64,000 nt of DNA from a candidate division WOR-3 bacterium (lineage in GTDB: Bacteria; Hydrothermota; Hydrothermia; LBFQ01), in assembly GCA_015492295.1 (NCBI GenBank), contig WGFI01000121.1, positions 2,787 to 66,786 of the forward strand, given 5' to 3'. This document shows, one piece after another, positions 32,298-50,464 of this stretch (positions are counted from its first letter, which is position 1; each line of letters opens with the position of its first letter). A program made the translations under genes and the position numbers. A model generated the notes under the pieces. That model was given only the letters and a program-made list of their open reading frames with translations. It was not told where the DNA came from and did no database searches.

Positions 32298-33143
32298 CTA
32301 CCATACGCTTTCTACGAATATGGTAATATCCGATATGGTTATAGCATCAGGTTTCACTTTGGGATATACCAGTATGGCCCTGTTGGATTCTAAGACCTTA
32401 GCGTATGTAAATGCTTGATATATGTCTCCCCTTCTAACCTCAGGCTTGTACTTTGCATCAAGTGGAACATTCCCTTCAACTATGAAATCGGGTTTAATCA
32501 TACCATATCCCTTAAATCTCTCACCGTTATAAATCTTCCCAACGAACTCCTCAAACAGCAAGGGAGTATTAACCACAAACCCTTGATTCCCGTATCCGAA
32601 TATGCCTGATATTATCAGATAGGCGAGTTGCCATATCTTTCGGTTTTCCGTATCATAAAACATCTTTCTGCGAAGAAAACCTTCGTTCGGAATCTTGTAA
32701 ATCGGAACATCAAATCCTAAGATCCGAAGAACATAGTTGAGATACAGTATATCCTCGGATTTTTCTAAGACATTTTTCTTCGCCGGAATCTCAAACATCT
32801 TGTGGATTTTGTACTTGTGAAGCAGGATCTTCCCTATTCCCCTCTTGTTCAGAATTTGTATATATCCTTTCTCCTTTGAGGAGAATCTCTCATAAAGCGA
32901 GAGAAATTCCTTCTTTATACTTTCAAACACCCCTATCGCTCCACCTTTCCCAGGCACTTTATAAAGCCTATCTATCATCTCGTATATCACTTCCCATCCC
33001 CACCTGGGTCTAACATCGTAGTCGTATATCTTCCCCGCCCCCCGTATAATGTAGTATTTTCCGAAACGAACAAATGCCCATTTTAAATGCTCGGGAGGTT
33101 TTGAGTGTAGCTTTACCGGTGAGAACTCTCTTACGATTTTCAA
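32298..33143 (-). CDS. McrC-like PD-(D/E)xK nuclease family protein (orphan)
   Basis: IKPDFIVEGNVPLDAKYK (D...D-A-K-Y-K) followed by DIYQAFTYAKVL, parallel to the McrC C-terminal catalytic region. No McrB-like GTPase adjacent. Confidence 0.4.
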   Translation of the reverse strand: MKIVREFSPVKLHSKPPEHLKWAFVRFGKYYIIRGAGKIYDYDVRPRWGWEVIYEMIDRLYKVPGKGGAIGVFESIKKEFLSLYERFSSKEKGYIQILNKRGIGKILLHKYKIHKMFEIPAKKNVLEKSEDILYLNYVLRILGFDVPIYKIPNEGFLRRKMFYDTENRKIWQLAYLIISGIFGYGNQGFVVNTPLLFEEFVGKIYNGERFKGYGMIKPDFIVEGNVPLDAKYKPEVRRGDIYQAFTYAKVLESNRAILVYPKVKPDAITISDITIFVESVW

Positions 33144-33226: not shown

Positions 33227-36200
33227 TCACCTCCTTATAAATTTATAAACCTTTTTTCCAAGTTTGAGCATATAAACCCCCCTCGGAATACCTTTCAAAT
33301 CCACCTTTACATATCCTTCACCCTTTACACTCATAACTTTCCTTCCCGTTGGGGAATATATGCTCCCAGCTATGCGTCCTTCTTTGAAAATTTCAATGTA
33401 GTTCCTCCCGAAAACCACCTTACTCATCTCCACTTTACGATTCTCCATCACGGATACGAGTATAGGTTCATCGGGTAAGGAATCTACGGGGGAATTCGTG
33501 GCCCACCTGTTATAAAATGGCATCCCCCATTTCACGCTACCTCCGAAATTCCTCCAAGAGTAAAGTTTATTCGCCTCCGTAGGTGCGAATATGTATATGT
33601 ATCCATCATAATTGACGAGGCTCGGCGTTGAATATACGGTGTTGATTCTGAATCTGTTGTGGTCCGAGAGATCAATTGGGAATCCGTAAAGGTCCTTTCT
33701 AAGGTAAGAGTAAGCGTGCAGATAGCTTCTCGCATCCGATATTACAACTTCATCCTTGCCATCCCCGTTTATATCTCCCGTAGTCGCCATCCTACCCCTT
33801 AAAGTGGCATCTTCGGAGAATGTGTCTATAAGAACAAACTGGGAATCAATTCTATAAACCTTCACATAGGGGAATGTTTGATGATAAAAGGCTATGTCAT
33901 CGTTTCCATCGCCATCAAAGTCCAAAGGTAGGCATACACTTAGAGGATTATAAGCCGAGGAATCCACCATAATTATCGTTCCCGATGGGGATATTATGGA
34001 ATTCCTATGCCCGCATGTTATGATTTCAGGGGTACTATCACCGATAAAATCCCATACGAATAACCACCTTGAAGTCCTAACATATATAGGGAATCCCGAC
34101 AATTCGTTCAGGTTTTGATCAAAGATATGGAGGGAATCTCCGAGTTTTACAACTATCTCCCAATTCCCATCACCATCAAAGTCGTAGGTCGCGGGAGGCG
34201 AGATGAAACTCGTATCCGAGAAATCGGCCAACCTGTACTTAACCAGCATTCCGGATGGATTGTAAAGGAATATGCTGCCTTTACGACTTATCACCAGAAT
34301 GTTTAAATTTGATGATGACTTAGTTATGGCGAGGTACAAAGGATAAGGGGTTGAATCGGCATAAGAGGGGAAGTAAGGGTAGGGGACACTCCAAAGTACG
34401 GCACCATCTGAGCTTCGCAGGGCGTGGAGGTAGAATGTGGTTGCGACTATCACTTCAAGTTTTCCATCGGAATTTATATCTGCGACGACAGGATGCGTTT
34501 CAATCCAACTTCCGAGATCCGTCCTCCATATTTCCGAACCGTCAAGCTTTAATGCGTATATCCTATTAAAAGCCGAAGCCGTTATCATCTCAGGTTCCGC
34601 CGTGTTGGTTAGAAGTTGGGCGAATATCGGCCCTGAGGTCTTGGGATATTTGGGAACACTGCTGAAACGGATATATTCAATATCCTTAACGAACCACAAA
34701 CTTGGATTTGGAGATTCAACCGTTGAGAAAACCGTATCACCTTCTATTCCATCCTGAACAACGACCACGGAAAAGTTCTTGGGTGAAAAATCATCGGTTA
34801 GGTATGTGTAATTGGATCCCGTCAATGTATCGTAATTCACGGGTTGCCCATTCACAAAGACCCTCCACGAATACTTTCTACCCGTGATACCCGTATATCC
34901 CCATCTTAGGGTTATACCTCCGTTCAGGGGCTCAGAAGAGTACCAGTCTATTGAGACGGTGGGGGTATCTATCCTTATTCTATATGTACCGAAGAACTTC
35001 GGACCCGCGTACAGGTTAAACCTTATCCACCCACCGTAAGGGAAACTCCCTCGCAGATAATAAACCAAGGTATGATTCGTGAATTCGCCTGGGGCGAGCT
35101 TTGTTATGGTATTACCATACAATGGGGTCAATCCGCTGCTATCAATCACGATCCTCACATCAAATGCCGTATCGCTTCCCGAGTTTGAAACCTCAAACAT
35201 GAGCAAAAGCGTATCGGAATAGTACCTCCATTTTGCCGAATGAAACACGAGTCTCGGACCACCGATCCATACATACGCCGAATCCGTATAACCACCGGCG
35301 TATATCCTTATCTTGGTGAATTTATTCCCATCCGAGAACGGTGATCTTACCACGGTCCAATCAAATCTTACGGAACTTCCAGGTGGTATATTCGCTCCGC
35401 TGGGTAGGGTTATGGGCATCAGATCGGGGGATGTTAGTATGGGAGATACGAAGATGCCTGCTGATCCTATGTTCTTTATCCAGACATGCAAGGTCGCGGT
35501 GTCGTTCGTTGATGTTAAGGTCGCCGAATCTATCTTCAAGGCGTAGTTTGAAAATCCAGCTTTTAAGCTTCCGGTATATATTAGAGAATTTGGATGCCAA
35601 GCGGTCCAATACAGCGTATCGGATCTCTTCACCCTCAAAGTCAGTGTTCCGCTTAGATTGGTGAAACCATATCCTACGACTTCCCTGTCATCCCTCAAAG
35701 AGATCTTAACGAAGGGTTTGGGTGAGAGTGTGGTTGAATCAAGGACGGTAAAGGTTATAAGGGAATCATTTACGGTATAGGATACCATAAGCTTCTGACG
35801 AGCATCGTTATATACCCTAAGCAGGGGATCCCCTACGATATGGTAAGATAGGAGAAGATACCTATAAAGTGTTGAGTATTGCGATACATAGGAATAGGCG
35901 AATTTTCCATAATTCACTATCAATCCTATGTATGGGAAACCGTTGAAACTATTTAAGGAATCGTATATCACCGACCATATACTTGATACGGAGAGTCCAA
36001 AATCCGCCTTGGTTACCCCTACGGATGCCACAGCCTTACCCCTCTTTACGAATTCAAGCCCCAAGGAGTTGGAAAAAGGATCGTTTATAAAGCAACCAAC
36101 CCAACCTACTATGAATTTCGTATTTCCTGTGTTGAGTTCTTCCGTTCTTCTGTAATCAAACGCATCGTATGCGCTCAAAGAATTCCTCGTCATTATTATC

Positions 36201-37471
36201 TTATGGTTTGAATGTCCTATCGCGAATGTCATTATGGGTCTGAAGGAGTTTAAAGTATCCCTAACCGCCGCCGATGGATGCTCACAGATTATCCTTTTCT
36301 GAGACGAGGGTATCCGCGTTAGTTTGTTCATTAAATCCATAGCGAGAAGACAACCATCCGCGCTATCGGGATCCGTGCTATCCCCCCAAAGATTTGAGCC
36401 TATGAAAGCGAATTTGGGCACTGAGAAATCGTTGGAAGTCTCATAGTTTATAACCATCTGTATGTAATTCTGAACCTCTGACGGGCTGTTAAACGGTAAT
36501 CTTCCCACCATTATATCCGGAACCAGATCCGCATAGATGTCTTCCTCGCTACCATCCCATTCATCGTCATTTAGGTTCCAATCCCCATCAAGGGCAGAAT
36601 AATAGTAGTCCGTTAAGAGAAAGTTCCTGAACCAATTTCCATAAATATCGCTTATCGTATCGGTGAAAAGCATCACATTGGTCCTCAAAGGTGGTATGTA
36701 TTGGGCATCCGCGCCTATCAGTAGAGCGGATATTCCCCAATTCTCGTAAGCATACCTCAGAAAGTTCCTAATCTTTTCGGGTATTGAGTTCCCATTGAAG
36801 TTTGAGATCACCCATTCAACCGTGAATATCTCCGTTTTTATTCCCATTGAATTCCTGAAATCGGCCAAAGGTTTCCAGGCATCTTTTAAAGCATCCGTCG
36901 TAAGTATTATATAATCCACCCTATCTTGGGGAACGAAGCTCATAGTCTGATATTCGCGGATTCCGAGAAAGTCAAATGTACCTCTCCATATATCCGGATT
37001 TGAGTACGAGGGTTTTGAAAATCGGTAGGAAAAAGGTTTCTTTATAACATCAAATTCCACCCTCTTGTTGAGAAACACCCTTCCATTCTTGATCTGCAAG
37101 GCGCTTATGATCACAAACGCCACATTATGACCCCTGAAAAACCCCTGATTGCCCACAAATACTATATTCTCCGGATACACATCGGGCAGATGGGTTTTAA
37201 CCTTTCTATCAACGGGCATAGCATAGGTTATATTGTAGTTTATAGGCTCCTGTTCTACGAGCCTCACCCTAATACCTTCAACCCTTTCAGTGGAACTCAG
37301 GTTTATAACGAAAACTTTAAAAGGTATCTCCGGATACCCAGGATAGGTTGAAAATCTCGGCAAATTATCTATGTCTTTAAAACTAACGGAATAACCTATA
37401 AGCCACAACATAATACTGAAATTATAAGGCTGTATCACAAGCACAATAGCAAATTTTAGAGTAATACCCAT
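33227..37471 (-). CDS. gingipain-like (peptidase C25 family) protein with FG-GAP repeats and T9SS C-terminal domain
   Basis: ISALLIGADAQYIPP resembles the C25 core motif (YLLLVGD..IP). At least four FG-GAP/integrin-alpha-like Ca-binding repeats (DINSDGKLEVIV, DFDGDGNWEIVV, DFDGDGNDDIAFY, DINGDGKDEVVISD). C-terminus GVYMLKLGKKVYKFIRR is T9SS CTD-like. Confidence 0.6.
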   Translation of the reverse strand: MGITLKFAIVLVIQPYNFSIMLWLIGYSVSFKDIDNLPRFSTYPGYPEIPFKVFVINLSSTERVEGIRVRLVEQEPINYNITYAMPVDRKVKTHLPDVYPENIVFVGNQGFFRGHNVAFVIISALQIKNGRVFLNKRVEFDVIKKPFSYRFSKPSYSNPDIWRGTFDFLGIREYQTMSFVPQDRVDYIILTTDALKDAWKPLADFRNSMGIKTEIFTVEWVISNFNGNSIPEKIRNFLRYAYENWGISALLIGADAQYIPPLRTNVMLFTDTISDIYGNWFRNFLLTDYYYSALDGDWNLNDDEWDGSEEDIYADLVPDIMVGRLPFNSPSEVQNYIQMVINYETSNDFSVPKFAFIGSNLWGDSTDPDSADGCLLAMDLMNKLTRIPSSQKRIICEHPSAAVRDTLNSFRPIMTFAIGHSNHKIIMTRNSLSAYDAFDYRRTEELNTGNTKFIVGWVGCFINDPFSNSLGLEFVKRGKAVASVGVTKADFGLSVSSIWSVIYDSLNSFNGFPYIGLIVNYGKFAYSYVSQYSTLYRYLLLSYHIVGDPLLRVYNDARQKLMVSYTVNDSLITFTVLDSTTLSPKPFVKISLRDDREVVGYGFTNLSGTLTLRVKRSDTLYWTAWHPNSLIYTGSLKAGFSNYALKIDSATLTSTNDTATLHVWIKNIGSAGIFVSPILTSPDLMPITLPSGANIPPGSSVRFDWTVVRSPFSDGNKFTKIRIYAGGYTDSAYVWIGGPRLVFHSAKWRYYSDTLLLMFEVSNSGSDTAFDVRIVIDSSGLTPLYGNTITKLAPGEFTNHTLVYYLRGSFPYGGWIRFNLYAGPKFFGTYRIRIDTPTVSIDWYSSEPLNGGITLRWGYTGITGRKYSWRVFVNGQPVNYDTLTGSNYTYLTDDFSPKNFSVVVVQDGIEGDTVFSTVESPNPSLWFVKDIEYIRFSSVPKYPKTSGPIFAQLLTNTAEPEMITASAFNRIYALKLDGSEIWRTDLGSWIETHPVVADINSDGKLEVIVATTFYLHALRSSDGAVLWSVPYPYFPSYADSTPYPLYLAITKSSSNLNILVISRKGSIFLYNPSGMLVKYRLADFSDTSFISPPATYDFDGDGNWEIVVKLGDSLHIFDQNLNELSGFPIYVRTSRWLFVWDFIGDSTPEIITCGHRNSIISPSGTIIMVDSSAYNPLSVCLPLDFDGDGNDDIAFYHQTFPYVKVYRIDSQFVLIDTFSEDATLRGRMATTGDINGDGKDEVVISDARSYLHAYSYLRKDLYGFPIDLSDHNRFRINTVYSTPSLVNYDGYIYIFAPTEANKLYSWRNFGGSVKWGMPFYNRWATNSPVDSLPDEPILVSVMENRKVEMSKVVFGRNYIEIFKEGRIAGSIYSPTGRKVMSVKGEGYVKVDLKGIPRGVYMLKLGKKVYKFIRR

Positions 37472-37494
37472 TCAACTGTAAAATAACCGGAATA

Positions 37495-38502
37495 GTGGTG
37501 AATCGTCAAAAGTTCAGTGGTGCGGTTGTATACAGAAGGAAGATCTTTGGGGATCCTGTGATAACCGTATATTACTTGCGGGGGGAGCCGATATATGCGG
37601 AGAGTTTTTTAGTAAAAAGACGGTGGTGGGAAGGTTTGCTATCAGAGGAGGAGGCTGAGAACCAATTGTTCGGTGATATATTTGGGTATGCTTCTAAGGT
37701 ATATAGGGATTCGTATGCTGAGCATCTTAGGAAATATGCCAAAGAAATAATTTCTATCGCCGAGGAGATTATAAAAGATTTTGGTTGGGAACTTGATATT
37801 GAAAAGATTGAGTATTCGGCGGAGGATATATCCTCTATGTTTCATATAAGCCTCGCGGAAAAGCAGGTTATAAACGAGAATGAATCCAAGGAGCGGAAAA
37901 TCGTATCCAACCTCAATGCCCTTGGTTTTTTAACTCTGTACATATCCAGCGAAGATGGTAGATGGAACGATTATGGTTTTTCTAAAACCCTTGGATTTAT
38001 GAAGAGAACGGTGGATGAGATTATGCAGAAAATGAGAGAAACAAACGGTTCCTTTGCTCTTGTATTGCCTTTGTACATAATAGCACATCTGGATACGGAG
38101 GAAAGAAAGGTATGGATCGCGACCAAGGACATTTATAAATTGGCTTTCGCTTTAAACTATCTGAAACCTGCCGAAAATATCTCAGAAAATTTGTTAAAAC
38201 AAATAACATTTCACTGTTGCAAATTTGTTATTTGGAAAACACATGGAGATACCTTTTCTTTATTTGATGGGACAAAGACCCAAATGCTTAACCTCACGGA
38301 TATTATGGAAAAAGTGGATAAATATCTGAAAGACTACGATCGCATTTTAAGAGAAGCCCAATCCCGTATGCCTTCCAATGTGCCTCCGAAGATGAAAGAG
38401 ATGTTACTTCATAAAATGGTAATAAAAAATCCTGATATACGGGATTTCGCGGAGGAATTTGCCTCCCATTTCAGCATAACACTTGACTATGAAAAAAGTT
38501 AA
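37495..38502 (+). CDS. uncharacterised protein, first gene of three-gene operon
   Basis: ORF track. No recognisable motifs. Overlaps the next gene by 20 nt, suggesting translational coupling. Confidence 0.4.
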   Translation: MVNRQKFSGAVVYRRKIFGDPVITVYYLRGEPIYAESFLVKRRWWEGLLSEEEAENQLFGDIFGYASKVYRDSYAEHLRKYAKEIISIAEEIIKDFGWELDIEKIEYSAEDISSMFHISLAEKQVINENESKERKIVSNLNALGFLTLYISSEDGRWNDYGFSKTLGFMKRTVDEIMQKMRETNGSFALVLPLYIIAHLDTEERKVWIATKDIYKLAFALNYLKPAENISENLLKQITFHCCKFVIWKTHGDTFSLFDGTKTQMLNLTDIMEKVDKYLKDYDRILREAQSRMPSNVPPKMKEMLLHKMVIKNPDIRDFAEEFASHFSITLDYEKS

Positions 38503-39748
38503 TTTTAATAGCAGCTTGGATTTTGTGGTTTATGACCCCCTTACGGGTAGAATGTTGGTTGAAGGGATTCCCGTCACTTACCATTGCAATGTGTTTAACC
38601 ACTTTTTTGCGGAAGGTATAAAACTTGCACTTGGTGAGGGGAAAGGTAAGGAAATCATATATCGTTCCTCGGAAATAGCCCATTACCGCCTGTTTCGTAG
38701 AATAAAGGAAAGATACGGATTGAGCGATAAGGAAATCTATACCTTTGGTATGAATTACTTCAAAAGTAGAGGACTGGGCGTTCTTAATGTGGAGGGACGT
38801 GATAAGATATACCTTCTCGCATCCACACATGCCCATACATATTTGAAAGTTTTGAGGTCGTTTTCCAGCGTTCCTATATGTGATGTTGAAAGGGGTTTTG
38901 TGGCCGGTCTTCTTGAGGCTGCACTTGATGTTGAACCGGGAACCATACATGTTGAGGAAACATCGTGCATAGGAAGTGGGGATCCGATATGCAAGATGGA
39001 GGTGCGTATAACCCATGATCGTATAGATACTCCCAATCCCGATTACAGTAAGGTGGTATTTTATCCCGTTGATGGAGCCGAGAAGAGGAAAAATACTATG
39101 GAGAAAATAATGCCTCTGATTCCTGAGCCCGATGACTCCGGTATAATAGCGATAGATTCCGCATTCACAGATATAAAGAAGGTATGGATATCGCAACTTC
39201 CCGGAGAGTACTACGCCTACGCAAACATGAAGGTTGCCGATATATCCGATCCCGAAACGGCGCGCTATACATTAACCTTGGCCGGATTCAACTGCGTTCT
39301 CTTTACATATGTATCAATAGCCCGTAGTCCCATAGGGAACATATTACTTGAGGACGCTGAATCCCAGAAAGATTATTTTGTAAAGCTGGCTGAAATAGGG
39401 AATTATCTGGGTTTTGGCATTTTCAAAGTTGAGGATGTTCATGAGAATGAAGGATGTGAATGCGATATAAGATTGTATAACTTCTATGAAAACAGCTATC
39501 TTGTAGCCCTGAATAGGGAAACGGTATCCTATTTCCTTTTGGGAGCCACACTCGCCCAATCTCTTGCCACTTATTTCTATCGGTATTACGAAAGGGATTC
39601 TCTGGGTCCTGTTAAAAAGATCTTTGAGGAGTTTGATAAAGCGTACGAGAGTATGGATGTAGATATGTCCTTTGATTCTTTGAAGAATGAGCAAAGGGTG
39701 ATTCTAAGTCTCCCCGTTCAAAAGGAAAGACCCCCATCATCCTTATAA
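38483..39748 (+). CDS. uncharacterised protein with V4R-like segment
   Basis: HAHTYLKVL...VERGFVAGLLEAALDV...ETSCIGSGDPICKMEV resembles the V4R/Bet3-like domain signature (GxLEG...ExxCxxxGDxxCxF). Confidence 0.4.
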   Translation: MTMKKVNFNSSLDFVVYDPLTGRMLVEGIPVTYHCNVFNHFFAEGIKLALGEGKGKEIIYRSSEIAHYRLFRRIKERYGLSDKEIYTFGMNYFKSRGLGVLNVEGRDKIYLLASTHAHTYLKVLRSFSSVPICDVERGFVAGLLEAALDVEPGTIHVEETSCIGSGDPICKMEVRITHDRIDTPNPDYSKVVFYPVDGAEKRKNTMEKIMPLIPEPDDSGIIAIDSAFTDIKKVWISQLPGEYYAYANMKVADISDPETARYTLTLAGFNCVLFTYVSIARSPIGNILLEDAESQKDYFVKLAEIGNYLGFGIFKVEDVHENEGCECDIRLYNFYENSYLVALNRETVSYFLLGATLAQSLATYFYRYYERDSLGPVKKIFEEFDKAYESMDVDMSFDSLKNEQRVILSLPVQKERPPSSL

Positions 39749-39755
39749 TACCCTA

Positions 39756-41378
39756 ATGCTCTTCATAGACAGTTTGATGTATCTTGCGGGATTTACAAAT
39801 AGAGATCTCGGTTTTAAGAAAGATCTGTCCTATGAAACCGAATTAAAACCATCGGTGATTATAAATCTTTTAAATAACCCTCTGCGTGCGTTTCACTTCG
39901 TTGATTCTCTATCCAAGGAGTACAGAGAGTTTTCCTATGTGAAAGTCCTGAATCTCGTTTGGTGGGAAAAGTTTAGAAAGATAAAAGTATCAAACCGTAT
40001 GACCTACAAGGATAGCGTAATAGGGCATTTTATTGATGTCCTGCACTGCTACAATTACTTTAAAGATAGGGCATTCTCAAGGTTAAAACCTGAATTCATC
40101 AGTAAAGTTAAAACACCACTTAAAAAGTTATGGGATACGGTTGAAACTTCCGATACGCTTACGAAGGATGAGTATATGAAGTTGGCGAGAACCGTCTTAT
40201 GGAACCATCTTATGAATTCCCTTCTATGCCTCTTGAATGTTGATACATCAAAGGTTCCGAGATTAGAGGATACCGCAACTTACATATACAAAACTTTATA
40301 CGGTGATATAGCAATAGGTGGCGTAGGGAACGATATATATAAAGGGAATTTCGTTGCTATCTTGGATTTTGGTGGCGATGATGTTTATTATGTTGATAGC
40401 GAGGTTCTGATAGTTGATCTTTCCGGAGATGATGTTTATTATGGGAATGTTGGTTCGGGTTTCTTTGGCTCTTCCGCACTTTTTGACTTCAAAGGTGATG
40501 ATAAGTATATGTGCGGCGATATGTCATGCGCAAGCGGTATAATGGGATTCGGTTTCATATACGATGGTGAAGGGAACGACATCTATTACGGTGGTTATCA
40601 TTCCATCGGTGCAGGAACCTTCGGGGGAGGATTCTTGATAGACATGTCAGGCGATGATATATACAAGAGTGTTATTTACGGTCAGGGATTTGCTGGAACC
40701 TATGGCGTGGGTCTTCTTTTGGACGGATCCGGGAATGATGTATATACCATAGGATACGGACCTATACATGAGCCTCTGTATAAAACTCAACGGGAGGGTC
40801 TTGGTCAAGGGTTCAGCATAGGAATGAGGGAGGATTTTGGAGGAGGAATAGGAATACTTATGGATTTTAAAGGGAACGATGTCTATAACGCTGGAACCTA
40901 TGCCCAGGGTGTATCTTACTGGTATTCTTTGGGTATTCTGTACGATGGTGAAGGGGACGATAGATATATATGTACTCAATATTGTCAGGGCGCCGGAATC
41001 CATATATCCGTTGGGTTGCTTATGGATATATCGGGGGATGATATGTATTTTGCATTGAACGGCCCTTCCATAGGTGCGGCGCATGATCTCTCCGTGGGTT
41101 TCCTATACGATTCTCTTGGAAATGATTTCCATTACACCTATGGGGGATTAGGTATGGGATTAACGAATTCAACGGGTATTTTCGTGGATGTTTATGGAGA
41201 TGATAAGTACTATGTTATGCAATGTGATATATCCTTGGGTGGTGCCAATATTAAAAGGGAAATGGGTGGTATAGGTATGTTTGTTGATGCCCATGGGAAG
41301 GATGTTTATGGGTGTGATGTTAAAAATGGTGAAAGGTGGGTGAGGAGGATGTGGGGTATTGGATGGGATGGTGAGTAA
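39756..41378 (+). CDS. tandem-repeat protein with 12 copies of a ~26-aa G(D/N)DxY repeat; predicted beta-solenoid, possibly Ca-binding
   Basis: Repeats FGGDDVYY, LSGDDVYY, FKGDDKYM, GEGNDIYY, MSGDDIYK, GSGNDVYT, FKGNDVYN, GEGDDRYI, ISGDDMYF, SLGNDFHY, VYGDDKYY, AHGKDVYG at regular spacing. ~190-aa helical N-terminal domain. No signal peptide. Confidence 0.5.
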   Translation: MLFIDSLMYLAGFTNRDLGFKKDLSYETELKPSVIINLLNNPLRAFHFVDSLSKEYREFSYVKVLNLVWWEKFRKIKVSNRMTYKDSVIGHFIDVLHCYNYFKDRAFSRLKPEFISKVKTPLKKLWDTVETSDTLTKDEYMKLARTVLWNHLMNSLLCLLNVDTSKVPRLEDTATYIYKTLYGDIAIGGVGNDIYKGNFVAILDFGGDDVYYVDSEVLIVDLSGDDVYYGNVGSGFFGSSALFDFKGDDKYMCGDMSCASGIMGFGFIYDGEGNDIYYGGYHSIGAGTFGGGFLIDMSGDDIYKSVIYGQGFAGTYGVGLLLDGSGNDVYTIGYGPIHEPLYKTQREGLGQGFSIGMREDFGGGIGILMDFKGNDVYNAGTYAQGVSYWYSLGILYDGEGDDRYICTQYCQGAGIHISVGLLMDISGDDMYFALNGPSIGAAHDLSVGFLYDSLGNDFHYTYGGLGMGLTNSTGIFVDVYGDDKYYVMQCDISLGGANIKREMGGIGMFVDAHGKDVYGCDVKNGERWVRRMWGIGWDGE

Positions 41379-41446
41379 TTAAATCTTTTATTTCTGATAG
41401 ATGGGAGCTTTACAAGAAGTTTTTCGGCTTTATGATATTAAGATAA

Positions 41447-41544
41447 GGCGCTGGCAGGCCGTCTAATGTCTGCCCTACCCGTGGGTCGCGGGGAAGTTAA
41501 GCCCGTGGAGTGGGCTTTGCCCACGATGAAGCGGGAAGCCCCTC
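41447..41544. repeat. copy A of conserved noncoding element, with 25-nt GC-rich insertion relative to copy B
   Basis: TCTGCCCTACC at 41469-79. Hairpin GTGGGC-TTT-GCCCAC at 41511-25. GATGAAGC, 12 nt, then ATG of ORF 41545. Confidence 0.4.
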
Positions 41545-41841
41545 ATGAGGAGAAGGCCACAAGGCAGGGAATATATACCTCTTGATCCTTCGCAGCAGGA
41601 TAAGTCGTTAAATCAAATAGCTGAAATAACGATCAAAAAAATCTCATCACTCCAAGATTCGGAAGATTTGAGAAAATCCACTTTTGATGAGGAGAAAAAT
41701 ATTGATGAATCTTTAAACGAGATAGCTGAAACTTTAAAAGATTTGAACTCAAAAGAGGAAGAATTAAGAAAATGTGTGATGATTGGATTTATAATCCTCC
41801 TGCTGGTGTTGTTGCTGTTGTTTATACTATACCATCGTTGA
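41545..41841 (+). CDS. small tail-anchored coiled-coil membrane protein
   Basis: Start ATGAGGAGAAGG lies immediately after conserved element A. C-terminal TM IGFIILLLVLLLLFILY. Confidence 0.35.
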   Translation: MRRRPQGREYIPLDPSQQDKSLNQIAEITIKKISSLQDSEDLRKSTFDEEKNIDESLNEIAETLKDLNSKEEELRKCVMIGFIILLLVLLLLFILYHR

Positions 41842-41873
41842 AAGTGTGCAGTATTATCAATCCCATAACAAGG

Positions 41874-42065
41874 ATGAAAGCGTTGAATGGCCTTAATATC
41901 TTTGCAGTTCCAAAAAGGCATAAAGAACTGATTGACAAAATTCAAAACCCAGACCTAAAAATCATAGCTTATATCCTCCTTTATCAAAACGAAAAACTTG
42001 ACGATATAAGCAAAGATATTGCGGAGATAAAGGATTTAATGGAGAGCGAGGTATGGAATAGGTGA
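41874..42065 (+). CDS. small uncharacterised ORF; the same frame continues protein-like past two stops to 42233
   Basis: ORF track 41772..42065 with an internal Met at 41874. See findings. Confidence 0.2.
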   Translation: MKALNGLNIFAVPKRHKELIDKIQNPDLKIIAYILLYQNEKLDDISKDIAEIKDLMESEVWNR

Positions 42066-42258: not shown

Positions 42259-45200
42259 TTATTCTGACAGTCTTAGATTTATGAGTTTATGCGTAGGATC
42301 AAGCATCACCTTTTCAGGTTTGAAAGTCAAAGGAATTATGAGTTTTCCGAAGCTCTCTCTTATCCTTATTCTCCTCAACTCCTTAACCTTTCCGTCCTTA
42401 TAGAAACCGATCTCAACAACATCGTTGGGTTTCAATTCGTACCTATTACCTACGCTATCATACCGAAACTTCCTAAACTCATACTCTATAAAGGCTTTCC
42501 CGTTTTCCCACCGAAACTTTTTCACACCAAAATCGTAAATGATTATGTCCTCGTACCAACCTTTTATCTGTTCCAAAAGGGTATCAGGGACTATTTCGTA
42601 GAGCATGCTGAGGAAATCCTTTGATGATGGGTAAGGTGAATGTTTATAAGAGTACTTATTCACAAACTCCCTTAGAAGACTATCAAACCTTTCCTTTCCA
42701 ATATAATCGGCGGTTGAATAATTTATCAATCCACCCTTGTTGTAGTGTATATAGGCCTGACCCTCGCTGAGATACAGTGGGGTTTCCTTGTATGTTTCCA
42801 TCTTTCTCCCTTTTAAATACCTGTCTATCTCATGTTTGAGGAACTTTGATGCATCACCGTATATATTTTCCATGACCCTTATACCCGTATATTCGGCGAA
42901 GGATTCGGAGAGGAAATGTATTCCCTTTGAGAATCTTGATATTACCTGATGAGCCCACCATTGATGCCCGACCTCATGGGATGTTACGAAAGTGGCGTAA
43001 TCTATATCCCCTTCTTTTACCTTCGCGAGGAAGCCTATATCCTCCGAAAAGGGTATAAGGGTTGCGAGGGATTGTGCAAATCTTCCAAATCTCGGAAATT
43101 CAACTATACGGAGGGTCTTGTGAGGATACGGTGAAAATCTTTCGGAAAATTTCAAACTCTCCTTCATACCTTTCAGTATTCTCTTTACATTGAAATCATG
43201 GGAAGGAAGGTAATAAATGTACAATTTCACATCGCCATAATTATCGGATACTACGGAGTATTTGCCACTTACAAAGGCGTATATGTGGAGTATCGGTTTC
43301 AAGCTCTTGTATTTAAAGAACCTCCTATTCCCCTCCTCCCAACTTCCGACCAACTCGCCTGGTGCCAAAGCAACCTGATTCGCGGATGTGGATACTACGG
43401 CCTCAAAATTCACCCAATCGGCATCGTTGATCATGGTTATATTTGAGATTCTCGGATCGTCAATATCGGGATATGCATCCTTTGGAGGTAGGCCATACTT
43501 TTTTCTCAAATTCCTGTTTTTAATCTCCCTATCCCGCATATACCCAAAAATGGGATAATTCCCCGACAGAAATGTGCCGTTTTCAAAAACCCCACACCTC
43601 GTATCAAAACCGTCAATTATACCCTTGGGTTCGCACGATATTTTAAACTCCACATAGAATCTATCCCCCGGTTTCAAAGGCTTCACAAATTCGTATATTA
43701 CAACACCCAACTCCTTATCCTTATGAATCTCTTTAACAGGTACGCTAAACCTTATAAATTCAAGTTTTTTATGAGTTTCGCTTTTGGCAGGTATATTCAC
43801 GAACAATCTACTTATGGCACGCGAGATTTTATTTTCTACCCAGAACTTTCCATAGGTATATACGCTTCTCCTCTTGGGATATATATCAACTCTCAGAAAG
43901 ACATCCGTTATCTTTGGCAGGGGCATATATTCGTACTTTGAGTAAAGCTTCTCATATTTTACCCTCATTCTTCTACTTTCCTCCCTTGATAGGAAACGAT
44001 TGAACACATAATGGTTATACCAAAGATATATCCCACTTACTACGAACACTACGAACGAAAGGGCCAAAACGGCCCCGTTTTTAATATTGATGGAGGAAAG
44101 CATCTTTTTGAGTCTCCCTTTAAAACCCGTAAAGTTTTCGGTGTATAAAAGGAAAGCCAAAGTTATGAATATCAAAGATAATCCTCCCCAATATACTCTG
44201 TACGCCAATAAAGTCTTTATGAAATGCCCATAACCGAAAAAGTCCGAATACTCTATGAGGGGATAAAAAGGGAATCGTATTATACTGTATTGGAATATCT
44301 TCGTTTCCAAGTTTGAAATGAACAGAATTCCTAAGAGGTATCCCATAAATAGCATATGCCCTACGAATTTATTCCTTACTATGGAATGAATCAGCAGGGA
44401 TAATGTTGAGAGATACACGATGGTTAAATAAGGTTCCAGCATAAGCCTTTTGATGTACAGGAATATCTCAAACCTGTAATATCCATTTATCGCTTGATAT
44501 ACGACTCCGCATATAATATACACAAAAATCAGAATACCTAAGAAAATCAGCATTCCTATGAACCTACCTAAGAGCAGGTATGGGAACATGGGTGAGGTGC
44601 CCAACATCTCAGAGGTTAGATTATCTTTATCCCTGTTTATGATCTCTCCCGCAATCAGGGTGGTCAGAATCATATAGAACAGAAGAACATTTCCTTGAAT
44701 AACACTTGTAAGTAAAGAGGTCGTGGGATATACGGGTGTATCATAAATGATATTTACACCGTAGAGGTTAGGTATGAGAACGATTATGGAAACAAGGATT
44801 ATACCGAGTATCGCGTAGGATCTCCTCAAATATTTTATCTCAAATAGGGCGGTGTGGATGATGAATTTTAAGATGTTAAAGGAGGGGACATACTTTGGTT
44901 TTTCAAGATAAACCTTAATTTCCTCTTGTACGAGTTTCCTGCCTTTCTCCTCCTTCTCTTTTAAGTTAAAAAACCTATAAGATACGAACAGGATGACAAT
45001 ACCAACGAGAAGCCATAGGATTCTATTGAATGTTATAGACATAGACCAAGGAATACTTTGCGTGTTCAGCTGGGCAGATGTCCAGTATTTTATAGTTTCG
45101 CTGAATGCGGAAAATCCGAAAGGATCAAGATATATTGATAGTTTCTCAAGTTTTAATATACCCATAAGCGTTGATGAAACTATCCATAAGGCGAAGAATA

Positions 45201-45747
45201 ATACACCTCCGAGGTAGGCTATGAACTCCTTTCTGGTTGCGGCGGTGATGCCGAAGAACAAGGATGAGAACAGAAATGTGTTTGGTATTCCGAACTGTAA
45301 TATTGGATTCAGATAGTGATAAAGGTTCATAGGACCGAGTTTTTCCTTATCCACCCAAGGAGCAAAATTGCCAAGAATCTGGCCAATAAGTATGAAAATG
45401 AGTATGGCTAATGAGATTACAAAGCTTCCTACGAGTCTCCCGAAGAAGTATTCGCTTTTCCTTATAGGAGATGTGAATATAAACTCGTAGGTCTTGTCCC
45501 TTATATCCCTATAAGCGGAGTTGGATGCAACATACGAGATTATGAATATGCCGAACATATAGGATACGAGGAAGGAGAAGGTTATCATATAGGGAGAGTT
45601 TTTTAAGATGTTAGTTTCCGAAGCTCCAAGTCTTATAAAGTCGGAAGTTATGAGTAAGAAACCCATAAGAGACAGTATAAAACTTAGAAAATAAAACGCC
45701 CTCGTTTTCAGCCAAAATTTTACCTCAAACAGTATGATACCCAACAT
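42259..45747 (-). CDS. fused ABC-2 family permease / M1 family aminopeptidase
   Basis: ~12 TM helices in the N-terminal 650 aa. C-terminal gluzincin motif VTSHEVGHQWWAH plus downstream E (LSESFAEY), giving HExxH-x18-E of the M1 family. Confidence 0.7.
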   Translation of the reverse strand: MLGIILFEVKFWLKTRAFYFLSFILSLMGFLLITSDFIRLGASETNILKNSPYMITFSFLVSYMFGIFIISYVASNSAYRDIRDKTYEFIFTSPIRKSEYFFGRLVGSFVISLAILIFILIGQILGNFAPWVDKEKLGPMNLYHYLNPILQFGIPNTFLFSSLFFGITAATRKEFIAYLGGVLFFALWIVSSTLMGILKLEKLSIYLDPFGFSAFSETIKYWTSAQLNTQSIPWSMSITFNRILWLLVGIVILFVSYRFFNLKEKEEKGRKLVQEEIKVYLEKPKYVPSFNILKFIIHTALFEIKYLRRSYAILGIILVSIIVLIPNLYGVNIIYDTPVYPTTSLLTSVIQGNVLLFYMILTTLIAGEIINRDKDNLTSEMLGTSPMFPYLLLGRFIGMLIFLGILIFVYIICGVVYQAINGYYRFEIFLYIKRLMLEPYLTIVYLSTLSLLIHSIVRNKFVGHMLFMGYLLGILFISNLETKIFQYSIIRFPFYPLIEYSDFFGYGHFIKTLLAYRVYWGGLSLIFITLAFLLYTENFTGFKGRLKKMLSSINIKNGAVLALSFVVFVVSGIYLWYNHYVFNRFLSREESRRMRVKYEKLYSKYEYMPLPKITDVFLRVDIYPKRRSVYTYGKFWVENKISRAISRLFVNIPAKSETHKKLEFIRFSVPVKEIHKDKELGVVIYEFVKPLKPGDRFYVEFKISCEPKGIIDGFDTRCGVFENGTFLSGNYPIFGYMRDREIKNRNLRKKYGLPPKDAYPDIDDPRISNITMINDADWVNFEAVVSTSANQVALAPGELVGSWEEGNRRFFKYKSLKPILHIYAFVSGKYSVVSDNYGDVKLYIYYLPSHDFNVKRILKGMKESLKFSERFSPYPHKTLRIVEFPRFGRFAQSLATLIPFSEDIGFLAKVKEGDIDYATFVTSHEVGHQWWAHQVISRFSKGIHFLSESFAEYTGIRVMENIYGDASKFLKHEIDRYLKGRKMETYKETPLYLSEGQAYIHYNKGGLINYSTADYIGKERFDSLLREFVNKYSYKHSPYPSSKDFLSMLYEIVPDTLLEQIKGWYEDIIIYDFGVKKFRWENGKAFIEYEFRKFRYDSVGNRYELKPNDVVEIGFYKDGKVKELRRIRIRESFGKLIIPLTFKPEKVMLDPTHKLINLRLSE

Positions 45748-46597
45748 GGTAAAAGTACGCCTCTTCTAAGGAGGGGGCAACTGGCTCCCAGGAATCGCGT
45801 AAAGGTTTATCGCTATACACCGATACGAACATCCTACCTCCTTTTAAATGAACATTAAGGATCCGATAATTCTCTTTTATAGTTTCAATCTCCTCCTTTG
45901 ATATTTCTCTGCGAAATACCTTCCCTTTAAGCGAGGATATTATTTCATCCGGTTTTCCCCTAACTATGATTCTCCCATCTTTTATTATCGCCATATCATC
46001 GCACAGCTCTTCAACATCACCCACTATATGGGTTGATAGTATAACCAACCTATTCTCACCCAGTTCGGATAGAAGATTTAAGAATCTCCTCCTTTCCGCC
46101 GGATCCAATCCTGCCGTTGGTTCATCCACTATTAAAACCTCCGGATTCCCAAGAAGCGCAACCGCTATTCCAAACCTCTGCTTCATCCCTCCCGAAAATT
46201 CCCCGAGTTTCCTTTTTCTATCCTTATAAAGATTTACCCTATCCAAGAGATAATCAACCAATCTTTTTCTCTCTTTTGATGAGGTGAAACCTTTCAAGTA
46301 AGCGAAATGTTCAAGCATTTCATAGGCCGATACATTCTTATAAACCCCAAACTCCTGAGGCAAATATCCGAGAACCCTCTTAAACCTTTCAGGTTCTTTA
46401 AGAATATTTATATCCTTCCATATAACCTCTCCCTTATCAGGTTCAAGTAAGGTCGCTATTATCCGCATTAATGTTGTTTTTCCTGCACCGTTTGGCCCTA
46501 AGAGGCCGAACATACCATAGGAGATTTCAAGGTTTATATTCTCCAAAGCTCTGATACCTCCCGGATATGTCTTTGAAAGACCTTTTACGATCAGCAT
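45725..46597 (-). CDS. ABC transporter ATP-binding protein
   Basis: Walker A GLLGPNGAGKTT. Signature LSGGMKQR. Walker B LIVDEPT. Overlaps the permease start (translational coupling). Confidence 0.85.
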   Translation of the reverse strand: MLIVKGLSKTYPGGIRALENINLEISYGMFGLLGPNGAGKTTLMRIIATLLEPDKGEVIWKDINILKEPERFKRVLGYLPQEFGVYKNVSAYEMLEHFAYLKGFTSSKERKRLVDYLLDRVNLYKDRKRKLGEFSGGMKQRFGIAVALLGNPEVLIVDEPTAGLDPAERRRFLNLLSELGENRLVILSTHIVGDVEELCDDMAIIKDGRIIVRGKPDEIISSLKGKVFRREISKEEIETIKENYRILNVHLKGGRMFVSVYSDKPLRDSWEPVAPSLEEAYFYHVGYHTV

Positions 46598-46742: not shown

Positions 46743-47019
46743 TTTACAGAAAGCCCTGCATAATAGACTTTGAGCGAAACTGGGTAAAAATTCAAGAGAT
46801 TGGAGAGTGGTTTAGGGTTTTAAGACTTAAACAAATAGATACTATCTGCCATCAATGGAAGCAGGAGAGCTGTTATCAGCCAACTTTAACGACGGTAGGG
46901 AAGTTTGACCAAAAAGACTTCAAAAATTTTGGCAAGGAAATACATTAAGCGGGGTTATTTGGGAAAAAGTGTGGATTTAGGCGAAGTATTGAGCTTGGTC
47001 AAAGAGTTTTTGAGTGTCC

Positions 47020-47092
47020 GATTGAAGTCTGCCCTACCGTAAAGTGGGCTCTGCCCAAGATGAAGCCCTTTATCAAAGATGAGGGGAGGAGG
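47020..47092. repeat. copy B of conserved noncoding element (TCTGCCCTACC ... AGTGGGCTYTGCCCAMGATGAAGC - N12 - ATGAGGRGARGG)
   Basis: Direct comparison with copy A at 41447..41544. Identical 11-mer, 24-mer (2 mismatches) and 12-nt spacing to an ATGAGG start. Confidence 0.4.
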
Positions 47093-48538: not shown

Positions 48539-48991
48539 ATGTTGATTCTACTTTTAACTCAGGTAAAAGTTGATATTGTGGATGTTATCGGAAATTTTCT
48601 CATACTCGGTAAGAAGGAAACTTCCTCCTATGTCATTATGAGCATAGGTGAGAGTGAGGCATTCTCAATAAGGATAGCCTTGGACAATGTAAAGTTTGAG
48701 AGGCCATTGTCCCATGATCTTATGAAAAACATCCTGGATATATCGGGTTTCAGACCTATAAAGGTGGTAATATACGATGTAAAAAACGGTGCATATTTGG
48801 CGAAGATACATCTTGAAAAGGGTTTTTGGATATTCAAGCAGAAGGTTGTACTTGATAGCAGGCCATCGGATGCGGTTGCGATAGCCCTGAGATACAATAT
48901 ACCGATATATGTTATGCCCCACCTGTTTATAAATCCCCTTGAAATACAACCCGATACCATAAAAATACCGAAAGGAGGGATAGAAGGTTGA
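48539..48991 (+). CDS. bifunctional nuclease family protein (DUF151)
   Basis: PLSHDLMKNIL and DSRPSDAVAIALRYNIPIYV match DUF151 conserved blocks. Confidence 0.6.
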   Translation: MLILLLTQVKVDIVDVIGNFLILGKKETSSYVIMSIGESEAFSIRIALDNVKFERPLSHDLMKNILDISGFRPIKVVIYDVKNGAYLAKIHLEKGFWIFKQKVVLDSRPSDAVAIALRYNIPIYVMPHLFINPLEIQPDTIKIPKGGIEG

Positions 48992-49821
48992 TGAATTTTG
49001 AAAGGGAATTCATAAATCATCTCGTATCTTCGGGAAAAAGTGATAACACGGTAAAATCTTATATGTACGATTTGGATTATCTTAAAAGATTCGCCGAGTA
49101 TATGGGCAAATCTCCATTGAGTCTCTCAAAGGAAGATATGAGATATTTTATACCTTTCTTGCAGAACAATTCCCTAAGTCCAAAAAGCATTGAAAGGATA
49201 ACCTCCGCTATTAGGAAGTATTACGGTTTTCTTGTAAAGAGGGGTTATGTACATTCCGACCCAACCAAAGGGATTCAGAGGATCAAAAAACCCAAAAGGG
49301 TTCCGAGAGTGGTTGAGAAGGAAAAGATATTTAAGATCCTTAAAGAATGGAAACCCAACAACGATGAGGAAACTCTGGCAAAAGATTTGATATTGGTTAT
49401 TTATTCTACGGGTATGAGGATAAGCGAGATTCTGAATTTAAAGGGTGAGGATATAAACTTTGAGGAAAGGAGTATATATATAAAGGGCAAAGGTGGTAAG
49501 CACAGGAAAGTACCTTTCAACGATATAACCTATACTATACTGAAAAGGAGATTTAAGGATGAGAGAACCAGAATATTTAACATCAGCAGATTTAAAGCTT
49601 ACAGGCTGATAAAAGAGGCATTTGAAAAATATGCGGGTTTAAGCGGCGTCCATCCGCATATACTCAGACATTCGTTTGCCACACATTTACTTGAAAACGG
49701 TGCCGATATAAAAACCGTTCAGCAGCTTTTAGGGCATTCCTCCCTATCATCAACGGAGATTTATACGCGGGTATCTTTGAGGCATATAAGGAAGATATAC
49801 GATGAGGTATGGGAAGGATAA
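48988..49821 (+). CDS. xerD: tyrosine site-specific recombinase, XerC/XerD family
   Basis: C-terminal HPHILRHSFATHLLENGADIKTVQQLLGHSSLSSTEIYTRV (R..H..R..Y catalytic box II). SAM-like N-terminal domain. Confidence 0.8.
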   Translation: MMNFEREFINHLVSSGKSDNTVKSYMYDLDYLKRFAEYMGKSPLSLSKEDMRYFIPFLQNNSLSPKSIERITSAIRKYYGFLVKRGYVHSDPTKGIQRIKKPKRVPRVVEKEKIFKILKEWKPNNDEETLAKDLILVIYSTGMRISEILNLKGEDINFEERSIYIKGKGGKHRKVPFNDITYTILKRRFKDERTRIFNISRFKAYRLIKEAFEKYAGLSGVHPHILRHSFATHLLENGADIKTVQQLLGHSSLSSTEIYTRVSLRHIRKIYDEVWEG

Positions 49822-49862
49822 AATCAACAGACAAAAATTTTCACCCTTATAATATCCGCACG

Positions 49863-50462
49863 ATGGCAAAGGCTAAGAGAAAGATGTCGGCATCCACCAT
49901 AAGATTGCAAGAGTTTAGTGTGGTAGGTGGCCTTGGAAAGAAAGGCTACGATATAGATGAAGTCAGGGATTTCTTAAATCAAGTGGCGAGATATGTGGAT
50001 GAACTTGAAAAGAAGTTAGAATCCTCCGCTGGACAGACCTCTCAGGATACGACATTACTTGAAGCCCAGATAGAGCAGCTTACCGAGGAGAATGAGAATT
50101 TGAAGAAGGAGATTGAAAGGTTGAAGAAGGAAAACGCCGAACTTAAAAGTAAGGGAGGGAGTGGTCCCAAGTGGGAGGATATTCCTAAGGAGCTTCTGGC
50201 AAATGAGGTTATAATGGCAGCCAAGAGAGCGGGAGATAGTTTAATAGAGGAAAAGAAACGGGAAGCGGAAAAGATTCTTGAAAATGCTAAGAAAGAGCTT
50301 CAGGAGATAAATTTCCAGTTGGCAAAGGCTAAGGAGGAGCTGAAAAGCGTTGAGAATCAGAAGAGTCAGATACTTTCAAAACTCGATGAGGTGAAGAGAC
50401 AGGTTAAAAATGAAATCCTTACGCTTGCTAAAAAGGTGGAGGATTTCGCCAATAAGTTATAA
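49863..50462 (+). CDS. DivIVA domain protein
   Basis: GYDIDEVRDFLNQVARYVDELE matches the DivIVA N-terminal domain. Long coiled coil. The start is uncertain (ORF track 49809; Met codons at 49863 and 49884). Confidence 0.6.
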   Translation: MAKAKRKMSASTIRLQEFSVVGGLGKKGYDIDEVRDFLNQVARYVDELEKKLESSAGQTSQDTTLLEAQIEQLTEENENLKKEIERLKKENAELKSKGGSGPKWEDIPKELLANEVIMAAKRAGDSLIEEKKREAEKILENAKKELQEINFQLAKAKEELKSVENQKSQILSKLDEVKRQVKNEILTLAKKVEDFANKL

Positions 50463-50464
50463 GA

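What the first reader, a model, noticed from the sequence alone, without database searches (positions are those of the whole stretch)
37495..41378. Three-gene operon of uncharacterised proteins, divergent from the giant gingipain-like gene
Genes 37495-38502, 38483-39748 and 39756-41378 are co-oriented, overlapping or separated by 8 bp, and none has a clear known function. The second carries a V4R/Bet3-like Cys-containing segment (ETSCIGSGDPICKMEV); V4R domains bind small hydrophobic ligands or mediate regulatory interactions. The third is a 540-aa cytoplasmic protein dominated by 12 tandem ~26-aa repeats. Copy A of the conserved element follows the operon immediately. This is the best candidate in the window for an undescribed functional module, possibly a cytoskeletal/scaffold or sensing system.
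Basis: partly seen in the sequence, partly recalled or inferred. Interest (0 to 1): 0.7.

Follow-up and report, generated by a model that had tools for sequence, protein, structure and literature searches.

The report
Conserved V4R gene pair plus unrelated beta-helix gene
The three genes are real and uncharacterised, but only the first two (an orphan protein with a roadblock-like fold and a zinc-site V4R ligand-binding protein) form a conserved, co-evolving pair, found so far only in WOR-3 bacteria; the third, a calcium-type beta-helix repeat protein, sits beside them in this one species only.

Summary
The three ORFs exist as described and have real homologs. They are not a conserved three-gene module.

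- **g1 and g2 are an obligate pair.** g1 (335 aa) lies directly upstream of g2 (421 aa), overlapping or nearly so, in 13 of 13 non-redundant loci. All are candidate-division WOR-3 MAGs. The pair is duplicated as a unit in at least 4 MAGs and co-diversifies (Mantel r = 0.95).
- **g3 is not part of it.** g3 (540 aa) is absent within ±10 kb of the other 12 pairs. Its orthologs, including one 87% identical, sit elsewhere. The adjacency is real but specific to this species.
- **g2** carries a DUF5943+V4R (Bet3-superfamily) domain with the V4R Cys3+Glu zinc motif, then a conserved 220-aa domain of unknown fold.

Most likely g1–g2 form a non-enzymatic cytoplasmic complex that binds a ligand or senses redox state. 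A TRAPP-like reading is possible but weakly supported, and no GTPase lies nearby.

The parts
37495..38502 (+). g1: 335-aa orphan protein (public gene call starts at 37498). It is the obligate upstream partner of g2. The predicted fold is multi-domain alpha/beta, with a roadblock-type a-b-b-a-b-b-b-a unit at aa 128-222.
38483..39748 (+). g2: 421-aa V4R-domain protein (public gene call starts at ATG 38489, 419 aa), highly conserved across relatives.
   Evidence: ORF. Thirteen homolog clusters at 44-74% identity with 66% mean column identity. One homolog is named 'V4R domain-containing protein' by NCBI.
38534..39007 (+). g2 N-terminal DUF5943 + V4R (Bet3-superfamily) ligand-binding domain, aa 18-175.
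   Evidence: Pfam V4R at aa 131-175 (E 1.3e-6) and DUF5943 at aa 18-103 (E 2e-4). V4R matches 13 of 13 family members, DUF5943 matches 8 of 13. NCBIfam aligns aa 90-174 to the MsvR V4R region.
38879..38992 (+). Putative V4R zinc/redox motif: invariant C133, E158/E159, C162 and C170 (C-x25-E-x2-C-x7-C).
   Evidence: These residues are invariant columns. The Cys spacings of 29 and 8 compare with 26 and 8 for MaMsvR C206/C232/C240 (PMC3729527). Three Cys plus one Glu coordinate zinc in MopR, CapR and PoxR (PMC10715001). Metal binding itself is inferred.
39080..39718 (+). g2 C-terminal conserved domain of unknown fold, about aa 200-412.
   Evidence: Many invariant residues. No Pfam hit. No similarity to the N-terminal half by hhalign, probability below 2%.
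39756..41378 (+). g3: 540-aa protein with an N-terminal helical domain and an RTX-like beta-solenoid. It is adjacent to g2 (7-nt gap) in this species but is not a conserved part of the g1-g2 module.
   Evidence: ORF. More than 2000 homologs, none with a Pfam model covering this domain. Absent from all other g1-g2 loci. The adjacency is reproduced in 3 other assemblies of the same species.
39756..40235 (+). g3 N-terminal all-helical domain, aa 1-160.
   Evidence: AF2 secondary structure shows helices H2-11 through H149-160 with pLDDT mostly above 90.
40278..41375 (+). g3 parallel beta-helix of 13 repeats (hhhD-x-x-G-(N/D)-D-x-Y), aa 175-540.

Best explanation
The region holds two separate things.

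**1. A conserved two-gene module, g1-g2, found so far only in candidate-division WOR-3 bacteria.**
- The two genes are translationally coupled and probably form a stoichiometric cytoplasmic complex.
- g2 supplies a V4R (Bet3-superfamily) pocket domain, held together by a Cys3-Glu zinc site. This is the domain type that binds small hydrophobic ligands in MopR, PoxR, DmpR and Bet3, and that responds to redox state through the same cysteines in MsvR.
- g2 also carries a second conserved domain of unknown fold.
- g1 is a sequence orphan whose predicted fold contains a roadblock-like alpha/beta platform domain. It most likely acts as the dimerising or adaptor partner.
- Neither protein has a DNA-binding or catalytic signature. 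The complex would therefore sense or carry a small ligand or redox signal and pass it on through protein-protein contacts with an unidentified target.

**2. g3, an independent gene placed 7 nt downstream of g2 in this species only.**
- It encodes a helical N-domain plus a 13-turn RTX-like, probably Ca2+-stabilised, beta-solenoid that acts as a binding or scaffold surface.

**Shown:** gene reality, g1-g2 synteny and co-diversification, V4R assignment at family level, motif conservation, and the g3 fold.
**Inferred:** complex formation, zinc and ligand binding, sensor/adaptor role, and Ca2+ binding.
For: - **g1-g2 pairing:** g1 lies directly upstream of g2 in 13 of 13 non-redundant loci, with overlaps of 4-26 nt or a gap of 11 nt.
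- **Duplication as a unit:** two pairs occur in each of 4 MAGs.
- **Co-diversification:** Mantel r = 0.95, 0 of 5000 permutations as high.
- **g3 not linked:** no g3 in any other g1-g2 locus, and g3 orthologs at 55-87% identity sit in other contexts.
- **V4R assignment:** V4R matches 13 of 13 and DUF5943 matches 8 of 13 family members.
- **Motif:** invariant C133/E159/C162/C170 match the published V4R cysteine spacing and the Cys3-Glu zinc site.
- **g1 fold:** two independent methods rank roadblock/longin proteins top, and the topology of aa 128-222 matches.
- **No enzymatic or defence signature:** none by sequence for g1 or g2.
Against: - g2 could not be modelled, so half of it has no fold assignment.
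- The window's own V4R score (28.8-30.5 bits) is just under Pfam's cutoff of 31.
- No output partner, GTPase or regulator is conserved nearby.
- g2's very high conservation (58% mean pairwise identity and many invariant polar residues) would also suit an enzyme.
- Distant g1 relatives occur without g2.
- g3's tight 7-nt spacing means it may still be co-transcribed and functionally recruited in this species.
Confidence: 0.45

Rival explanations
1. This is a true three-component functional system. g3 is the scaffold or cytoskeletal component, and it works with the g1-g2 sensor.
For: The three genes are co-oriented with a 7-nt g2-g3 gap and no predicted terminator between them. The arrangement is reproduced in 4 assemblies of this species.
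Confidence: 0.08
2. g1-g2 is a bacterial TRAPP/Ragulator-like platform. A Bet3-fold subunit (g2) and a multi-roadblock/longin subunit (g1) together regulate a small Ras-like GTPase encoded elsewhere in the genome.
Against: The structural scores are below the usual significance levels, and PAS and GAF folds score similarly. No roadblock or longin sequence signal appears in 29 family members. No Ras/MglA-like GTPase lies in the window or in any g1-g2 flank. No internal domain repeat is detectable.
Confidence: 0.1
3. g1-g2 is a ligand carrier or chaperone, or an unrecognised enzyme, acting in a lineage-specific metabolic step such as handling a lipid, tetrapyrrole or cofactor intermediate. This would resemble the carrier role proposed for BchJ, rather than a signalling device.
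For: g2 is unusually conserved, with many invariant His, Cys, Asn, Arg, Glu and Tyr residues in both halves. V4R/Bet3 domains hold hydrophobic ligands. Some loci are flanked by metabolic genes: a succinyl-CoA-ligase-like ATP-grasp, aminotransferases and glycosyltransferases. BchJ as a V4R carrier is from my own knowledge and was not tested here.
Against: No metabolic neighbour is conserved beyond a subclade. No catalytic family signature is present. V4R domains characterised so far are non-catalytic.
Confidence: 0.2

Closest known systems
V4R sensory domains of sigma54 activators (MopR, PoxR, DmpR/CapR)
   Same: g2 aa 18-175 has the same two-part layout: an N-terminal sub-domain followed by the Pfam V4R core. 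It also carries three Cys and one Glu in the positions and spacing of the structural zinc site.
   Different: g2 has no AAA+ or HTH output domain. The phenol-anchoring His/Trp pair could not be checked. g2 has an extra 220-aa conserved C-terminal domain and an obligate partner gene, g1. No PDB V4R entry is detectable by sequence.
MsvR (methanogen redox-sensing V4R regulator)
   Same: NCBIfam aligns g2 aa 90-174 to the MsvR V4R region. The three conserved V4R cysteines have near-identical spacing, so a thiol or redox switch is plausible.
   Different: g2 has no DNA-binding domain. The score of 20 bits against a cutoff of 220 means it is not an MsvR family member. The host is bacterial (WOR-3), not a methanogen.
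TRAPP core (Bet3-family plus longin subunits) and Asgard Thor-TRAPPC3
   Same: The composition runs parallel: a Bet3-superfamily protein encoded with a protein whose predicted fold best matches longin/roadblock platform proteins.
   Different: g1's similarity is fold-level only and weak. No GTPase partner is evident. g2 has an additional domain. There is no evidence of membrane association or GEF activity.
MglB, LAMTOR and LC7 roadblock domain proteins
   Different: There is no Robl_LC7 sequence signal. g1 is three times larger, with additional domains. No adjacent MglA-like GTPase is present.
MpAFP region IV (PDB 3p4g), the Ca2+-bound RTX-like beta-helix of the Marinomonas ice adhesin
   Different: The g3 repeat is about 26-27 aa rather than 19 aa. 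No Thr occupies the ice-binding position. No HemolysinCabind Pfam hit is found. g3 has an N-terminal helical domain, no giant adhesin context, no signal peptide and no evident type I secretion signal.

Membership tests
V4R domain (Pfam PF02830, Bet3 superfamily): g2 | Match to the V4R profile at or above the curated cutoff (31 bits) | tested here: inconclusive
   The window protein scores 28.8 bits as a whole and 30.5 bits as the N-terminal half alone, just under the cutoff. All 13 family members match at E < 0.1, best 1.4e-8. Ten of 13 carry a precomputed PF02830 hit and one is named a V4R protein by NCBI.
V4R domain (Pfam PF02830, Bet3 superfamily): g2 | Three conserved cysteines (plus Glu) in the C-terminal part of the domain, forming the zinc or redox site | tested here: met
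   C133, E159, C162 and C170 are invariant in 13 of 13 members. Cys spacings of 29 and 8 compare with 26 and 8 in MaMsvR. A Cys3+Glu zinc site is described for MopR, CapR and PoxR.
V4R domain (Pfam PF02830, Bet3 superfamily): g2 | Two-layer alpha/beta Bet3-like fold with an internal ligand cavity | not tested
Roadblock/LC7 or longin domain: g1 | Sequence match to Robl_LC7 or longin profiles | tested here: not met
   No such Pfam hit in any of 29 family members even at E <= 10. No PDB sequence match.
Roadblock/LC7 or longin domain: g1 | a-b-b-a-b-b-b-a topology and significant structural similarity | tested here: inconclusive
Roadblock/LC7 or longin domain: g1 | Genomic or physical association with a small Ras-like GTPase | tested here: not met
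   No ORF with an N-terminal P-loop plus NKxD lies in the window or in any g1-g2 flank. Whole genomes could not be searched.
TRAPP-like complex: g1+g2 | Bet3-fold subunit(s) plus a longin-fold dimer acting as a GEF on a Rab-type GTPase | tested here: inconclusive
   The Bet3-superfamily component is supported (g2). The longin/roadblock component is only weakly supported (g1). The GTPase was not found nearby.
RTX / MpAFP-RIV-type Ca2+-bound beta-helix: g3 | Parallel beta-helix fold with one Gly/Asp-rich turn per coil | tested here: met
RTX / MpAFP-RIV-type Ca2+-bound beta-helix: g3 | Canonical nonapeptide GGxGxDxUx detectable as HemolysinCabind (PF00353) | tested here: not met
   No Pfam hit in g3 or in 24 relatives. 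Only the partial motif x-x-x-G-[ND]-D-x-[YF] is present, once per repeat of about 26 aa.
RTX / MpAFP-RIV-type Ca2+-bound beta-helix: g3 | Ice-binding Thr/Asx ladder (antifreeze function) | tested here: not met
   The residue before the G of G-(N/D)-D is G, S, K, E, L, Y or H across the repeats, never Thr. The MpAFP requirement is taken from PMC3492233.
RTX / MpAFP-RIV-type Ca2+-bound beta-helix: g3 | Ca2+ binding and export | not testable with these tools
   g3 has no signal peptide or TM segment. 83 of 120 relatives have a signal-like N-terminus.
Conserved three-gene operon | Gene order g1-g2-g3 conserved in relatives | tested here: not met
   g1-g2 are adjacent in 13 of 13 loci. g3 lies beside the pair only in this species.

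The most novel reading that the evidence does not exclude
g1-g2 is a bacterial counterpart of the TRAPP/Ragulator design: a Bet3-fold (V4R) subunit obligately partnered with a multi-roadblock/longin-like subunit. It would serve as a platform for a small GTPase or other switch in WOR-3 bacteria. This would put the Bet3 + longin/roadblock partnership outside Archaea and Eukarya and give a simple two-protein system in which to study its ancestral function.
Probability: 0.1. Interest if true: 0.8.

Novelty: new variant of a known kind. Interest (0 to 1): 0.42.

Why it matters
- **A tractable V4R system.** V4R/Bet3-superfamily domains are widespread, but stand-alone prokaryotic members have almost no assigned function. 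Here one comes with a strictly co-inherited, co-diversifying partner. That makes it a defined two-protein system that could be expressed and tested for complex formation, zinc content and bound ligand.
- **A link to TRAPP origins.** If the partner's roadblock/longin-like fold is confirmed, the pair becomes relevant to how the Bet3 + longin platform of eukaryotic TRAPP arose.
- **An unmodelled large family.** g3 belongs to a family of more than 2000 members spread across several phyla, with a very confident RTX-like beta-helix fold, frequent HEAT-repeat fusions and no Pfam model. This is a gap in domain databases that could be filled easily.

Tried and rejected
- **Internal duplication in g2** (C-terminal half as a second V4R). 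An eyeball resemblance was not supported by hhalign: probability 1.8% and below 1%.
- **Internal repeats among g1's three predicted sub-domains.** None found; hhalign probability below 1%.
- **Sequence links of g1, g2 or g3 to solved structures.** Nothing credible came from whole-family or domain-only profiles.
- **Anti-phage defence role.** No PADLOC hit. McrBC genes nearby in L002 and in the window are not conserved neighbours.
- **Small GTPase partner in the neighbourhood.** None found.
- **A third conserved partner gene.** All other neighbours are shared only within a subclade.
- **Enrichment of T9SS-tailed cargo genes near g1-g2.** Their overall density, about 1 per 15 kb, matches that in g3 loci and the rest of the window. 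Immediate adjacency in 6 of 13 loci is suggestive but phylogenetically non-independent.
- **Distant g1-like proteins as a test of the pairing.** Two distant branches lack g2, so the strict pairing holds only for the core family.
- **RAGATH-18-like element as a TnpB guide RNA.** No TnpB gene lies next to either copy.
- **The weak in-window g1-profile hit at 49809-50462.** It is a DivIVA-like coiled-coil protein and the match is spurious.
- **Not possible.** A g2 structure prediction was blocked by the cap.
Full report
**Observation.** Three co-oriented ORFs lie at 37495-38502 (g1, 335 aa), 38483-39748 (g2, 421 aa) and 39756-41378 (g3, 540 aa). Public gene calls for identical proteins start g1 at 37498 and g2 at ATG 38489. 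This gives a g1/g2 overlap of 14 nt and a g2/g3 gap of 7 nt. The scan finds no terminator-like site in either junction; the two it reports lie inside g1 and g3. All three have homologs with E-values down to below 1e-200. The same g1-g2-g3 arrangement appears in three further independent assemblies of the same species, so the genes and their adjacency are real. None receives a functional assignment from Pfam, NCBIfam or PADLOC, apart from a near-threshold V4R match in g2.

**Synteny splits the "operon" in two.** Homologs of g2 (13 clusters) and g1 (10 clusters) are rare and share contigs.
- Context look-ups and a scan of 185,579 species-representative genomes gave 13 non-redundant loci. All are from candidate-division WOR-3 MAGs, one of them labelled Thermotogota.
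- In 13 of 13 loci a g1 homolog lies immediately upstream of g2, with a 4-26 nt overlap or an 11-nt gap.
- Four MAGs carry two paralogous pairs, and two loci have an extra g1 paralog upstream.
- Pairwise identities of g1 and g2 across loci are tightly correlated (Mantel r = 0.95, 0 of 5000 permutations as high). The pair is therefore inherited and duplicated as a unit.
- No other neighbour is shared beyond a subclade.
- g3 is absent within ±10 kb of every other g1-g2 locus.
- g3 orthologs at 55-87% identity sit next to gltX, a PLD-like gene, a 343-aa unknown, or an amino-acid kinase. Three of the four have a 550-aa g3 paralog about 5 kb away, and none has g1-g2.
- The g2-g3 junction is thus a species-level juxtaposition.

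**g2.** All 13 family members match Pfam V4R and 8 match DUF5943.
- The window protein scores 28.8-30.5 bits against a cutoff of 31.
- The family is very conserved, with 66% mean column identity. Invariant residues include C133, E158/E159, C162 and C170.
- The Cys spacings of 29 and 8 mirror the three conserved V4R cysteines of MaMsvR (C206, C232, C240), which mediate redox-dependent conformational change (PMC3729527).
- Three Cys plus one Glu form the structural zinc site of MopR, CapR and PoxR (PMC10715001). Zinc sites are also described in Thor-TRAPPC3 and PoxR, where they tether the sheet to a helix to create ligand cavities (PMC10933270).
- The C-terminal 220 aa are equally conserved. They have no Pfam match and no detectable similarity to the N-terminal half.

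**g1.** An exhaustive profile search of 1.84 billion representative proteins found only 27 clusters.
- No Pfam or PDB sequence signal appears in 29 members.
- The AlphaFold model is usable (pLDDT 82.6, pTM 0.58).
- Foldseek finds nothing at E <= 1e-3. It does rank Rag C-terminal, MP1/p14 and axonemal LC7 roadblock domains first.
- Residues 128-222 have the a-b-b-a-b-b-b-a roadblock topology described by Levine et al. (PMC3747258).
- I conclude that g1 contains at least one roadblock/longin-class alpha/beta platform domain, at fold level and with modest confidence.
- No small Ras/MglA-like GTPase is encoded in the window or in any flank.
- Two distant g1-like branches lack g2. One is a tandem g1-like pair; the other has a weakly methyltransferase-like partner.

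**g3.** The model is very confident (pLDDT 95.3, pTM 0.95). It shows a helical N-domain (aa 1-160) and a beta-solenoid (aa 175-540).
- The solenoid has 13 repeats of hhhD-x-x-G-(N/D)-D-x-Y, mostly 26-28 aa apart.
- g3 lacks the ice-binding Thr ladder and is not recognised by the RTX Pfam model.
- The family has more than 2000 members in WOR-3, Cloacimonadota, Calditrichota and Coatesbacteria, and no Pfam model.
- Of 120 relatives sampled, 83 have a signal-like N-terminus and 82 a C-terminal HEAT-repeat extension. The 14-cluster clade that contains g3 has neither.

**Interpretation.** The best-supported reading is that g1-g2 form a stoichiometric, non-enzymatic cytoplasmic complex. In it a zinc-stabilised V4R pocket binds a small hydrophobic ligand or senses thiol redox state, and a roadblock-like partner provides the interaction platform. 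g3 is an unrelated, probably Ca2+-stabilised beta-helix binding protein that was recently placed downstream. The compositional parallel with TRAPP (Bet3-fold plus longin/roadblock-fold subunits) is the most novel reading the data allow. It rests on weak fold scores and lacks a GTPase, so I give it about 10%.

**Limits.**
- g2's fold and the g1:g2 interface were not modelled.
- Whole genomes could not be searched for GTPases.
- No expression data were available.

Noticed in passing
window 41441-41570 (hairpin 41502-41537, +) and window ~47017-47080 (+): A GC-rich island (63% GC against 41% background) lies 60-190 nt after g3. It contains a hairpin CCCGUGGAGUGGGC-UUU-GCCCACGAUGAAGCGGGAA that matches Rfam RAGATH-18 below threshold (33 bits, cutoff 44.9, E 3e-4 for an 880-nt search), with the model's 39-nt insert reduced to 4 nt. 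A degenerate second copy lies about 300 nt after tRNA-Ala. RAGATH-18 is a k-turn RNA and the guide-RNA scaffold of IS607 TnpB nucleases, but no TnpB gene is near either copy.
   Followed up: partly
L006:7018-8670, L007:13356-15008, L008:11331-12983(-): Three of the four g3-ortholog loci examined (L006-L008) have a 550-aa g3 paralog (30-40% identity, ending in a conserved C-K-G-K-[ST]-C-P tail) about 2-5 kb away. No such paralog is present in the 64-kb window.
   Followed up: partly
window 33227-37471(-); L012:4530-6989; L017:4091-6418; L019:6659-8998; L014:7213-8853(-); L021:7334-8827; L007:6253-8004; L008:6913-8001: Genes with T9SS-type C-terminal sorting tails directly flank g1-g2 in 6 of 13 loci. 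They also directly precede g3 orthologs, overlapping their start, in 2 of 4 loci. Overall density of such genes is high everywhere (about 1 per 13-21 kb), so the adjacency may be chance.
   Followed up: partly
window 37472-37494: Only 23 nt separate the annotated ATG of the divergent 1414-aa C25/FG-GAP/T9SS protease gene from the g1 start. Either both promoters lie inside the neighbouring coding regions, or one start codon is mis-set.
   Followed up: no
window 42259-45747(-) and 45725-46597(-): A 1162-aa fusion of ABC-2-type permease domains with a C-terminal M1 aminopeptidase domain overlaps an upstream ABC ATPase gene. This is an unusual transporter-peptidase architecture.
   Followed up: no
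window 41545-41841(+) and 41772-42065(+): Two small overlapping ORFs lie between g3 and the M1 gene. One is 98 aa with a C-terminal hydrophobic helix. The other, 97 aa with no Pfam match, is the one called by public annotations.
   Followed up: no
L025:1179-3271; L023:6001-7721: Distant g1-family members (15-20% identity) occur as a tandem pair without any V4R gene (L025), or are followed by an overlapping 222-aa weakly methyltransferase-like gene (L023). The g1 fold is therefore used with other partners outside the core family.
   Followed up: partly
window 48988-52195: A tyrosine recombinase (XerC/D-like, 277 aa), a DivIVA-like coiled-coil protein (217 aa) and an FHA+TPR protein (576 aa) lie in a row about 2 kb beyond the second RAGATH-18-like copy and tRNA-Ala.
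   Followed up: no
window 32298-33143(-): A 281-aa ORF matches only the C-terminal end of McrBC (McrC-like), immediately downstream of the C25 protease gene. It is possibly a remnant or a divergent restriction component.
   Followed up: no
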